Positions 6,701-10,500 of a stretch of DNA of 64,000 bases are shown one piece after another (the stretch's first letter is position 1; the number at the start of each line of letters is the position of its first letter). The translations under genes were made by a program, and so were the position numbers. Below the pieces are notes generated by a model, which was not told where the DNA came from, did not search any database, and worked only from the letters and a program-made list of their open reading frames with translations. The stretch is taken from NCBI RefSeq assembly GCF_054482595.1, contig NZ_CM137008.1; one strand, given 5' to 3'.

Positions 6701-6875
6701 AGGTAGCCCGCAGAAGTATACTGAACGCTATAAAGAATGTAGTGGAGATGCTGGTTGTGAACAGCAGATCCGTAAGGATATGGCGAAAGAATCGGCGGAA
6801 AATGTTCTTAAGTTGAAGTCGGTGATGCTGCCAACTTACTGATTTAGTGTATGATGGTGTTTTTGAGGTGCTCCA

Positions 6876-7151
6876 GTGGCTTCTGTTTCTATCAGCTGTC
6901 CCTCCTGTTCAGCTACTGACGGGGTGGTGCGTAACGGCAAAAGCACCGCCGGACATCAGCGCTATCTCTGCTCTCACTGCCGTAAAACATGGCAACTGCA
7001 GTTCACTTACACCGCTTCTCAACCCGGTACGCACCAGAAAATCATTGATATGGCCATGAATGGCGTTGGATGCCGGGCAACAGCCCGCATTATGGGCGTT
7101 GGCCTCAACACGATTTTACGTCACTTAAAAAACTCAGGCCGCAGTCGGTAA
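6876..7151 (+). CDS. insA: IS1 InsA
   Basis: 91 aa with zinc-finger motif CPSC...CSHC. Confidence 0.9.
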
Positions 7152-7573
7152 CCTCGCGCATACAACCGGGCAGTGACGTCATCGTCTGCGCGGAAATGGA
7201 CGAACAGTGGGGCTATGTCGGGGCTAAATCGCGCCAGCGCTGGCTGTTTTACGCGTATGACAGGCTCCGGAAGACGGTTGTTGCGCACGTATTCGGTGAA
7301 CGCACTATGGCGACGCTGGGGCGTCTTATGAGGCTGCTGTCACCCTTTGACGTGGTGATATGGATGACGGATGGCTGGCCGCTGTATGAATCCCGCCTGA
7401 AGGGAAAGCTGCACGTAATCAGCAAGCGATATACGCAGCGAATTGAGCGGCATAACCTGAATCTGAGGCAGCACCTGGCACGGCTGGGACGGAAGTCGCT
7501 GTCGTTCTCAAAATCGGTGGAGCTGCATGACAAAGTCATCGGGCATTATCTGAACATAAAACACTATCAATAA
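7070..7573 (+). CDS. insB: IS1 InsB (expressed as InsAB' by -1 frameshift)
   Basis: 167 aa ORF overlapping insA in the -1 frame, typical IS1 organisation. Confidence 0.88.
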
Positions 7574-7594
7574 GTTGGAGTCATTACCGACACA

Positions 7595-10500
7595 TCAGAA
7601 ACGATATTCCACACTCAACATGGCAGATGTATTATGGTATCCATGTTCTCCAAGTTGAATGCCTGCATCAGCCCGGAATGCTACTTCTGGTGTTATCATT
7701 CCCACAACACCACCATTTATTTCTCCGATATCACGCGCACCATCCTGGTATATACTTACACCATTCATACTGGTGCCGAAAACACGACTATTGTGCAACC
7801 AGTGTGCCTCCACAAATGGTCTGAACGGAACCGCATACCGCGTATTTTTACCGTTTTTGCTGGTAAGCCATGTTCTTGCTCCCAGGCGGGTGAGAATATT
7901 TCCGTTACCGGTATTTTCAATACTGGTTCCGTTACTTTCATGATATTTGTCTGATTTTACATTCATCCGGACAACCTGAAGCTGCGGCTGAACATACCAT
8001 TCATGACTTCCCTTGTAATTGTCGGTAAACTCTCCAGCCTTCCATGAATATCCTGCTTCCAGAGATACCGTAAACCCTTTTGACTTCCATGACTCAGCAG
8101 GCAGCCGTTCTCCATTTATATGATTATCAAACCAGCTGTATTGCAGCCAGCTATCAAGATAAGAACCATTGTGTGTTTCATCATTGGCATACCATGTTGC
8201 ATAAAGACCCGCTGTGTATCCATTCATTCTTCCTTCCGAATGGTATCCGGTGCTCAGGGCATTCGTACTGTTATTATTATGACCATAGCCAGCCATCATA
8301 CCTGTATGCCAGCGATCGGTACCATTCAGGCTCCACTGAGCTATATCTCCCCCTATTAACACAACGTAGCTATTCCCCCGGGTTCTCAGCTGACTACTGT
8401 TGTCACGCCAGCGATTATGTTTTCCTTTATTATACATCCAGATACCTGCTTCATTTTCTTCTCCTGTCATGTGGCTGATATACAACTCCTGTCCCTGTCG
8501 TTCATACAGATTCGTTACAAACAGATTATTTGCAGCAGCAATACTGGCAACATAGCTACCTGCCTCAGGACGCAAATTATTATCATGGCTTTCCGGTACA
8601 GCTTCAGGTTGTGGTACAGGAATGTCTTTTCTGCTAATCAGATACCAGTTAGTGCTGTTAATCCCCTGACCACGTTTCAGTATGTAATCATAAGCTCCGG
8701 CTGTAATACGTTCCGTCTGAATGAATTCAGCATTATCAGCATTGCCACTGACGTGAATCACTTCAATCCCATTAAGTGTCTCTGCACCAGTACCACCGGC
8801 CTGAGTAACAGCGACACGGGTACGGCCACTGGCATTACCTTTAATCACCAGACGATCTGTTTTCGAATTGTCACCACCTGTTTCTGTCTGGAGGAGAATA
8901 AGTCCATTTCTGCCAGTGTAATTCCCTCCGACAGTCAGTATATTACCCGGCATATATGTAGTGAGATCGACTATACCACTATTGCTCAGATTTCCTGCAA
9001 CGCCCCCAAACCCGGAGAGTTTGCCCTGCTCTTCAACAATGACCTGGTTACTGCCGAGCATCACCGGTGAATCTGCGTTCCCCAGTATCACTGTCCCCTG
9101 AATAATATCTGTCATCCCGGTCCATTTTGCGTTATCGCTAATGTTCAGTGCACCTGCTCCCGTCTTGCGAACATTACCATAACCACTGATATTGTTGGTA
9201 AGCTGCCATGCTGATGTACTGTTCAGAGTTAATGTGCCATAGTTATCAACAAAGGCTGTCCCCAGATTATCAGCCGTGGATACAGCCAAATGAGCCCCCT
9301 TATTCACGGTAAAAACACCGGAAAAATTACGATTATTACCCGTTATATCAAGCATTCCCCCATTTATGTTCAGAGAACCATCCCCTGCAATAGTACCTGC
9401 AGATTCTCCTCCATTATTCAGTATCAGACTTCCGCCATGAATGTTCAGCACAGAGCCTGCAGCCGTCAGTAGTTTGCTTATTGTCTGAGGATACCCATTC
9501 ATATCCAGTTCTGCGCCACGGGATAAATATAAATACTCAGTCCGACCAAGAGCATCAGGTGCAGCAAGAATTAATACGCCAGATTTAACCTCTGTATTTC
9601 CTGTATAATTGTTTGTTGCAGAAAGTATAAGAGTACCATTACCTGATTTTGTCAGACTTTTGCCGTCCCAGCCATCATATAATAAAGGTGAAAGATTATC
9701 GGAAAGAGAAACGCCTATGTTCAGAGTGGCATCTTTTTCTATATTAAAGGTTCCATATCCCATCCCTTTTGTATTATTCCATCTCAGCATGGATATCAGT
9801 TTGTTATCGTCGTCATTTAAAGACGTATAAACATAACTTTCAGCACCTTCTGTCAGTAATACATTGTATTGTACAATGTGACTATTATCAGCGATCGAGA
9901 TACCTGTGTCTGACGACAATAATGTGTAATAGTCCTGAGTCCAGTTCTTAATTGATGTGTCTATATTAAGCCATGAATCACTTTTTAATGTAATAGTATT
10001 TGCGTGAACATTAGCATTTCCTACAGACAGGTTCATAGATGCGTCTTCATCAATACTTATATTTCCGTTAAAAATGGAGTTCTTGCCTGACAGATAAACA
10101 GATGAGCCATTCCCAATCATTAGCCCACCATTAATTGCTGTTGCGTTATTGATGTTTTTAATAATTAATTCATTTGTACCATTAACAGGTATACTAGCTA
10201 GTTTAATATCACCATTAATCACAGAATCTGAATAAATATCTAATGAATTATACCCGCCAGAAAAAATTATTGATGTATTATAAGCATCTTTTTGGCTATT
10301 ATATAATCCTGAAAGATTACCATGATTATTAATATGGATATCTTCTCCATAAACAGAGCAACCACCGTCGGGGCCATATCCCCCCTGAACAATACCGTTA
10401 TTATTCAAAGTGATTTGATTTCCAGAAATAGCATCTCCCCCTTGTTTTATTCCATATCCTCCAGATATCATGTTGTCGTTAGTAATGAAAAGATTACTAC

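What the first reader, a model, noticed from the sequence alone, without database searches (positions are those of the whole stretch)
6812..7597. IS1 lacking target duplication, 6 bp from the autotransporter stop codon
The 9-bp flanks differ (GTTGAAGTC vs GACACATCA), so this IS1 probably mediated a deletion or inversion. It separates a short, possibly truncated AraC-family gene from the 3' end of a 1165-aa autotransporter and may have removed the regulator N-terminus or the adhesin terminator.
Basis: seen in the sequence. Interest (0 to 1): 0.3.

Follow-up and report, generated by a model that had tools for sequence, protein, structure and literature searches.

The report
Rearranged IS1 beside aatA adhesin gene

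Summary
A complete 768-bp IS1 lies at window 6821-7588. Its 9-bp flanks differ (GTTGAAGTC / GACACATCA), and its IRR end is 6 bp from the TGA of a 3,498-bp autotransporter gene, the published APEC adhesin gene aatA. A second IS1 in a near-identical genome has a perfect 9-bp duplication, so the absence here is meaningful. The two junctions have separate histories. The IS1|aatA junction is in 191 of 5,426 complete E. coli genomes, with at least four different partners on the other side. The left junction is in 47 genomes, again with several partners. IS1-free alleles of both flanks exist and are unrelated loci. On the left, IS1 cuts an orphan CdiA-CT-type toxin ORF at codon 50, and the rest of that gene is missing from every genome with the junction, so it was deleted. 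The IS1-bounded ~9-kb block occurs in both orientations (10 versus 13 genomes), and a mosaic IS1 in the fec-IS1-aatA variant shows IS1 x IS1 recombination directly. The AraC-type gene is a truncated remnant, but its breakpoint (~6670) is identical in IS1-free alleles, so IS1 did not truncate it. AatA is intact. Loss of a terminator cannot be shown. This is ordinary and largely already known.

The parts
6821..7588 (+). Complete IS1 (IS1A-type), 768 bp
   Evidence: Length, terminal inverted repeats and ORFs. Identical to the copy annotated 'IS1-like element IS1A family transposase, programmed frameshift' in NZ_AP045737.1.
6821..6843 (+). IS1 left inverted repeat (IRL)
   Evidence: GGTGATGCTGCCAACTTACTGAT; matches IRR at 18 of 23 positions.
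7566..7588 (+). IS1 right inverted repeat (IRR)
   Evidence: ATCAATAAGTTGGAGTCATTACC.
6876..7151 (+). insA ORF (91 aa)
   Evidence: Intact ORF. The A6C frameshift motif is at 7127.
7070..7573 (+). insB' reading frame (167-aa ORF), fused to InsA by -1 frameshift
   Evidence: Intact ORF. The identical copy is annotated as a programmed frameshift.
6812..6820 (.). Junction C: 9 bp abutting IRL (GTTGAAGTC), inside the toxin ORF
   Evidence: The junction is shared by 47 genomes. In the IS1-free allele the sequence continues TTGCTGGGAG....
7589..7597 (.). Junction D: 9 bp abutting IRR (GACACATCA). It includes the aatA stop codon (7595-7597).
   Evidence: The exact junction is in 191 genomes. The empty site in E. 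coli B and plasmids reads ...AATGTAAA|GACACATCA.
7595..11092 (-). aatA, APEC autotransporter adhesin gene, intact (1165 aa)
   Evidence: 3,498-bp ORF as published (PMC2944236). Pfam Autotransporter beta-domain, AC_1, PATR and Pertactin. Protein identical to 118C, CLSC36 and LD67-1, and 1 aa different from IMT5155.
6672..6820 (+). 5' fragment (codons 1-50) of an orphan CdiA-CT-type toxin ORF, cut by IS1. The ORF reads on into IRL and stops at 6842.
   Evidence: It starts VEVENNSL.... The full 233-aa ORF is present in IS1-free alleles. Homologues carry the PT-VENN domain PF04829 or are named filamentous haemagglutinin / TreTu toxin.
6281..6700 (-). AraC-family remnant: DNA-binding domain only. 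Real homology ends near 6670.
   Evidence: HTH_18 at residues 39-117. It aligns to residues 99-227 of the 229-aa homologue P0002. It is identical in IS1-free alleles.
1..6164 (.). Right part of the ~9-kb block lying between two inverted IS1 copies in related genomes (class-II fumarase/aspartase, MurR/RpiR regulator 1835-2722, dcuC 3006-4382, NAD-malic enzyme 4470-6164)
   Evidence: Annotation of the 99.99%-identical stretch in NZ_AP045737.1. The second IS1 lies outside the window to the left and is inferred from that genome.

Best explanation
This is an intact, probably still active IS1 whose two junctions were made in separate events and later brought together, so it never had a matching duplication in this position.

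Step 1 (inferred from comparative data): an IS1 came to lie 6 bp past the aatA stop through an IS1-promoted deletion or inversion in an aatA-bearing island. This junction then became fixed and widespread.

Step 2 (shown as an outcome, with the mechanism inferred): an IS1 end became joined to codon 50 of an orphan CdiA-CT toxin ORF, with loss of the rest of that toxin/immunity module.

Step 3 (inferred): the present join, toxin fragment | IS1 | aatA, arose in one of two ways. Either two IS1 copies recombined homologously, or the aatA-linked IS1 transposed intramolecularly into the toxin gene and deleted the DNA in between.

In related genomes this IS1 and a second, inverted IS1 about 9 kb to the left act as portable homology, and the block between them flips. 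The adhesin gene and the 6 bp after its stop codon are untouched. Transcripts leaving aatA now run antisense into IS1 rather than into the original AT-rich downstream DNA.
For: No duplication at 6-14 bp, whereas a simple IS1 insertion in the sister genome has a perfect 9-bp duplication.

IS1-free alleles of each flank exist and are unrelated loci. aatA continues ...TGTGTC|TTTACATTATAAATATCC in E. coli B and in plasmids. The toxin ORF continues ...GTTGAAGTC|TTGCTGGGAG in AH25 and LWY24.

Junction D is in 191 genomes, with IRL-side partners selC-integrase, fecI-ykiE, a truncated SGNH gene and the toxin fragment. Junction C is in 47 genomes, with IRR-side partners aatA, the phytase gene and plasmid backbones.

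The distal toxin DNA occurs only in the 16 IS1-free genomes, so it was deleted rather than moved.

Inversion isomers share the same outer flanks: 10 genomes of the window type and 13 inverted.

The IS1 in fecI-IS1-aatA is mosaic, with 16-17 differences confined to positions 4-127 and the remainder like the CLSC36 copy. That is direct evidence of IS1 x IS1 crossover.

IRR endpoints lie at 132 and 6 bp from the aatA stop with the identical integrase|IRL flank, and at 53 bp in a third genome. That is the adjacent-deletion signature.

In strain 2017.04.03CC aatA is bracketed by inverted IS1 copies and is flipped relative to BL21.

The hypothetical simple-insertion junction is found in 0 of 5,426 genomes.

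The literature attributes missing duplications mainly to recombination between IS copies and to adjacent deletions (PMC11708052).
Against: The order of events and the enzyme responsible (RecA-type recombination versus IS1 transposase) cannot be separated for this particular copy. Its sequence carries no crossover signal, because it differs by only 1 nt from the other IS1 of the pair in genome 118C and shares the private alleles 345A/513G with it.

The second IS1 lies outside the window and is inferred from a 99.9%-identical genome, not from the window's own strain.

No intermediate genome with a duplication-flanked IS1 at either site was found, so the initial events are reconstructed and not observed.
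Confidence: 0.88

Rival explanations
1. A single transposase-mediated event made this join. The IS1 already attached to aatA attacked the toxin gene on the same molecule (intramolecular replicative transposition, an adjacent deletion). The event deleted everything in between and left toxin fragment | IS1 | aatA without a duplication. No second IS1 and no homologous recombination were needed. This is a sub-case of the best explanation and differs only in mechanism.
For: One junction (D) is fixed and far more common (191 genomes) than the other (47). The distal target DNA is lost rather than relocated. Nested endpoints with a fixed opposite end elsewhere at this gene show that such deletions happen here. 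No duplication-flanked IS1 was found in the toxin gene in any genome.
Against: Junction C also occurs with non-aatA partners (phytase, plasmid backbones). Those would then all have to derive secondarily from the aatA join. The IS1-free allele AH25 has no aatA within 44 kb of the toxin gene. A mosaic IS1 shows that homologous exchange certainly operates at junction D.
Confidence: 0.35
2. The IS1 pair plus the ~9-kb dicarboxylate-metabolism block is a composite transposon that inserted as a unit just downstream of aatA. Under this model the duplication should be sought at the outer ends of the pair.
For: Two nearly identical inverted IS1 copies bracket the block. The same IS1-bounded block with junction C is also found on plasmids.
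Against: The outer flanks GATGTTGGT (phytase side) and GACACATCA (aatA side) do not match in either orientation. In IS1-free AH25 the phytase gene and the block are already contiguous in the same orientation, so the block is not an insert between phytase and aatA.
Confidence: 0.04
3. A simple IS1 insertion whose 9-bp duplication has since decayed by point mutation, or an assembly mis-join at a repeat.
For: None beyond the bare absence of a repeat.
Against: The two flanks belong to unrelated loci, each with its own IS1-free continuation. Flanking DNA is 99.9-100% identical among genomes, so there is no sign of decay. The identical join is in 10 independently assembled complete genomes.
Confidence: 0.01

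Closest known systems
aatA 'flanking variant 1' of APEC IMT5155 (fecI - IS1 - aatA), Dai et al. 2010, PMC2944236
   Same: The same aatA allele (1 aa difference) and exactly the same IS1-IRR | 6 bp | stop-codon junction. The 5' flank with IS91 and IS3 remnants is also the same.
   Different: The IRL side of IS1 abuts an orphan toxin fragment and a dicarboxylate-metabolism block instead of fecI-ykiE. The IS1 itself is not the mosaic seen in IMT5155. The paper reported that more than 50% of aatA-positive strains had uncharacterised flanks, and this is one such variant.
IS elements lacking target duplications through IS x IS recombination or adjacent deletion (reviewed and quantified in PMC11708052; classical IS1 deletion formation is cited from my own knowledge)
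   Same: There is no duplication. One junction is conserved while the other varies. DNA adjacent to the element has been lost. Segments between inverted copies have been inverted.
   Different: Nothing mechanistically different was detected.
IS1-based composite transposons such as Tn9 or Tn1681 (from my own knowledge)
   Same: Two IS1 copies bracket cargo genes, and the bracketed block also appears on plasmids.
   Different: There is no duplication at the outer ends. The cargo is ancestrally contiguous with one outer flank. Movement as a transposon has not been demonstrated.

Membership tests
IS1 family insertion sequence | Length of about 768 bp with imperfect terminal inverted repeats of about 23 bp | tested here: met
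   768 bp; IRL and IRR match at 18 of 23 positions.
IS1 family insertion sequence | insA and insB' ORFs with an A6C -1 frameshift site | tested here: met
   ORFs 6876-7151 and 7070-7573 are intact. AAAAAAC is at 7127. The identical copy is annotated as an IS1A transposase with programmed frameshift.
IS1 family insertion sequence | 9-bp direct target duplication. This marks a simple insertion and is not required for family membership. | tested here: not met
   The flanks are GTTGAAGTC and GACACATCA. A control copy in the sister genome has AGAGAACAG on both sides.
AatA (APEC autotransporter adhesin A) | 3,498-bp ORF, near-identical to IMT5155 aatA, with a C-terminal autotransporter beta-domain | tested here: met
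   ORF 7595-11092. One amino-acid difference from IMT5155. PF03797 E=9.6e-35. ORF length as given in PMC2944236.
AraC/XylS family regulator, full length | C-terminal double helix-turn-helix DNA-binding domain | tested here: met
   HTH_18 E=1.1e-17 and HTH_AraC E=7e-7.
AraC/XylS family regulator, full length | N-terminal domain as present in its closest homologues | tested here: not met
   It aligns only to residues 99-227 of the 229-aa P0002. P0003 extends further at the N-terminus. The truncation is also present in IS1-free alleles.
Orphan CdiA-CT / polymorphic toxin module | VENN motif at the start of the toxin region, and homologues that carry the PT-VENN pre-toxin domain | tested here: met
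   The ORF starts VEVENNSL. Homologues P0008, P0010, P0014, P0023 and others have PF04829.
Orphan CdiA-CT / polymorphic toxin module | Small immunity gene immediately downstream | tested here: inconclusive
   In IS1-free alleles a 140-aa ORF (DUF7878) follows. Its immunity function has not been tested. In the window it is deleted.
IS1 composite transposon | Target duplication at the outer ends of the IS pair | tested here: not met
   The outer flanks GATGTTGGT and GACACATCA show no match, direct or inverted.

The most novel reading that the evidence does not exclude
The fixed IS1 | 6 bp | aatA junction might be more than a scar. It could serve as the handle by which aatA is moved between tRNA-linked islands (selC, leuX, and the fec-linked site of unidentified location in IMT5155) by recombination with resident IS1 copies. 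The inversion of the IS1-bounded block could be an ongoing, reversible switch that changes what is transcribed toward or away from the aatA 3' end, modulating adhesin expression or IS1 activity.
Probability: 0.1. Interest if true: 0.3.

Novelty: already known. Interest (0 to 1): 0.12.

Why it matters
It matters little beyond housekeeping. The result correctly annotates one more flanking variant of the APEC adhesin gene aatA. It shows that the adhesin gene is intact and that the neighbouring AraC-like and toxin ORFs are dead fragments. It also gives a clean worked example of how IS1 copies shuffle genomic-island modules through nested deletions, inversion isomers and a mosaic IS1. For scanning purposes, the lesson is that an IS without a duplication inside an IS-rich island should be assumed to be a recombination or deletion product unless shown otherwise.

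Tried and rejected
1. Composite-transposon model: I compared the outer flanks of the IS1 pair and found no duplication.

2. Two-copy inversion model, in which each IS1 originally had its own duplication: no flank pair matches as a reverse complement.

3. Duplicative-inversion model (intramolecular replicative transposition): the predicted inverted 9-bp repeats (inner flank of one copy against outer flank of the other) are absent.

4. Search for a surviving simple insertion at the aatA site, using a constructed junction query: 0 of 5,426 genomes.

5. Search for relocation of the missing toxin-gene half: it is present only in IS1-free genomes.

6. Mapping a crossover within the window's own IS1: uninformative, because the paired copies differ by 1 nt.

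7. A 60-bp junction query to count junction D failed, because 30-bp IS1 pieces passed the threshold and were joined. I replaced it with a 27+60-bp design.

8. Terminator scan downstream of aatA in IS1-free alleles: none found. In the window only a weak candidate lies deep inside IS1, so the terminator question stays open.

9. Pfam on the 233-aa toxin ORF: no family matched. Its identity rests on homologues found.

Full report
OBSERVATION. The element is a complete IS1 at window 6821-7588: 768 bp, IRL GGTGATGCTGCCAACTTACTGAT, IRR ending ...GTCATTACC, insA at 6876-7151, the insB' frame at 7070-7573, and the A6C frameshift motif at 7127. The flanks GTTGAAGTC and GACACATCA share no direct repeat at any length from 6 to 14 bp. 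The minus-strand ORF 7595-11092 (1165 aa) ends with TGA at 7595-7597, exactly 6 bp from IRR. The absence of a duplication is meaningful. A genome 99.9% identical to the window across the island (NZ_AP045737.1, strain 118C_1_fosA3) carries one further IS1 that the window lacks. That copy is flanked by a perfect 9-bp repeat AGAGAACAG, and the window holds the single-copy empty site at 21139-21147. The same join is present in 10 complete genomes, so it is not an assembly artefact.

WHAT THE FLANKS ARE. The right flank is aatA, the APEC autotransporter adhesin gene. It has the published 3,498-bp ORF length (PMC2944236) and an autotransporter beta-domain, autochaperone and passenger repeats. Its protein is identical to that of three other genomes and differs by 1 aa from IMT5155.

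The left flank is not simply an AraC gene. The 139-aa minus-strand ORF (6281-6700) contains only the AraC-type DNA-binding domain. It aligns to residues 99-227 of a 229-aa homologue, with homology starting at its residue 11, which places the breakpoint near window 6670.

From 6672, on the plus strand, an ORF begins VEVENNSL... and runs into IS1. In the IS1-free alleles of strains AH25 and LWY24 this ORF is 233 aa and is followed by a 140-aa DUF7878 ORF. Its homologues carry the VENN pre-toxin domain PF04829 or are named filamentous haemagglutinin or TreTu toxin. It is therefore an orphan CdiA-CT-type toxin module.

IS1 cuts this toxin ORF at codon 50. The AraC remnant is identical in the IS1-free alleles, so IS1 did not truncate it.

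EMPTY SITES. In E. coli B and in two plasmids, the sequence after aatA reads TGA TGTGTC|TTTACATTATAAATATCC..., and IS1 in the window starts at the bar. In AH25 the toxin ORF reads ...GTTGAAGTC|TTGCTGGGAG.... The two IS1-free continuations are unrelated, so the two sides of this IS1 were never neighbours. A constructed query for the simple-insertion product (...TAATGTAAAGACACATCA|IRL) found 0 of 5,426 genomes. The distal half of the toxin gene exists only in the 16 IS1-free genomes and in none of those with the junction, so it was deleted and not moved.

DISTRIBUTION OF EACH JUNCTION. The exact IS1-IRR | 6 bp | aatA junction (junction D) is in 191 genomes, out of 685 that carry the aatA 3' end. 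It is absent from PLSDB plasmids. Its IRL side has at least four partners:
- the selC-island integrase (CLSC36);
- fecI-ykiE (LD67-1 and APEC IMT5155), which is the published 'variant 1';
- a truncated SGNH hydrolase gene (W2-5);
- the toxin fragment (this window).

The toxin | IRL junction (junction C) is in 47 genomes. Its IRR-side partners are aatA (10 genomes), a phytase-like gene (13 genomes) and plasmid backbones.

INVERSION AND RECOMBINATION. In genome 118C a second IS1 in the opposite orientation lies about 9 kb to the left, next to the phytase-like gene. Strain W2-5 has the same outer flanks (phytase and aatA) and the same junction C, but the block between the IS1 copies is inverted. 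None of the four flanks A, B, C and D matches another, directly or as a reverse complement. This excludes the single-insertion, composite-transposon, simple two-copy inversion and duplicative-inversion models for the present arrangement.

In IS1-free AH25 the phytase gene and the block are contiguous in the window's orientation. The block is therefore not a foreign insert, and the window's orientation is the ancestral one.

Direct evidence of IS1 x IS1 exchange comes from the fecI-IS1-aatA copies. Their positions 4-127 carry 16-17 differences typical of a divergent IS1, while positions 128-768 match the CLSC36 copy.

Evidence for transposase-type adjacent deletion comes from nested endpoints. 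With the identical integrase | IRL flank, IRR lies 132 bp from the aatA stop in strain 2017.04.03CC and 6 bp from it in CLSC36. A third genome has IRR at 53 bp. In 2017.04.03CC aatA is bracketed by two inverted IS1 copies and is flipped relative to BL21, where it lies 11-15 kb from the integrase and points away from it.

MECHANISM. The most likely account is that the two junctions arose separately through IS1-promoted deletion. They were then combined either by homologous recombination between IS1 copies or by one intramolecular transposition of the aatA-linked IS1 into the toxin gene. I cannot separate these two for this copy, because it differs by only 1 nt from its partner and shows no crossover signal. 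Both causes are the standard explanations for missing duplications (PMC11708052).

CONSEQUENCES. The aatA coding sequence and the 6 bp after it are unchanged relative to IS1-free alleles. No canonical intrinsic terminator is predicted within 500 bp downstream in IS1-free alleles. A weak AU-rich hairpin spanning the stop codon loses its 3' arm. Whether this matters is untested. IMT5155 has the identical junction and expresses AatA (PMC2944236). The toxin and AraC ORFs are non-functional remnants.

COMPARISON AND VERDICT. IS1 in the 3' flank of aatA, and the mobile-element-rich and variable flanks of this gene, were described in 2010 (PMC2944236). IS copies without duplications due to recombination or adjacent deletion are textbook. 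The only new detail is this particular flanking variant, in a tRNA-Leu island (tRNA at 47379-47463). Interest is low.

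Noticed in passing
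window 6672-6820 (full version L005:7072-8269): An orphan CdiA-CT-type toxin ORF (it starts at a VENN motif) plus a DUF7878 putative immunity ORF, far from any cdiBA genes. It directly abuts the truncated AraC remnant at about 6670, so an older breakpoint fuses two gene fragments tail to tail.
   Followed up: partly
window 1-6164; also L015 and L016 (plasmids): A dicarboxylate-metabolism block (class-II fumarase/aspartase, MurR/RpiR regulator, dcuC, NAD-malic enzyme, with a porin and an SGNH hydrolase just outside the window). It is present in only 79 of 5,426 E. coli genomes, is bounded by IS1, and is found both in chromosomal islands (tRNA-Phe and tRNA-Leu sites) and on plasmids.
   Followed up: partly
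window 27725-32431 and 34563-42577: By correspondence with the annotated sister genome, these are a dndBCDE DNA-phosphorothioation cluster and dptFGH phosphorothioation-dependent restriction genes, a complete Dnd-type defence system in the same island.
   Followed up: no
window 24187-26874 (-): A second, unrelated autotransporter gene (895 aa) in the same island, next to a ProQ/FinO remnant.
   Followed up: no
window 45927-47463: A tyrosine integrase (421 aa) next to tRNA-Leu(CAA) marks the island boundary. Core genes (yjgR, lptFG, pepA, holC, valS) follow.
   Followed up: partly
window 47669-59674 versus 1-47669: The island is 99.9-100% identical to strain 118C_1_fosA3, but the adjacent core genes are only 94.8-98.5% identical. 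This suggests that the same island sits in different chromosomal backgrounds through horizontal transfer or recombination.
   Followed up: no
window 21139-21147 and 17000-17004: Empty sites for an IS1 (9-bp duplication AGAGAACAG) and for an IS3-family element. Both are occupied in the sister genome, which shows recent IS activity in this lineage.
   Followed up: yes
L017/L020 (NZ_AP025205.2) and L018 (NZ_CP042903.1): Other strains have IS1 at 132 bp and 53 bp from the aatA stop. In one of them aatA is reduced to an IS1-aatA-IS1 cassette between a truncated setC and the selC integrase, with almost the whole selC island deleted. The AT-rich DNA after aatA appears to be a recurrent IS1 endpoint.
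   Followed up: partly
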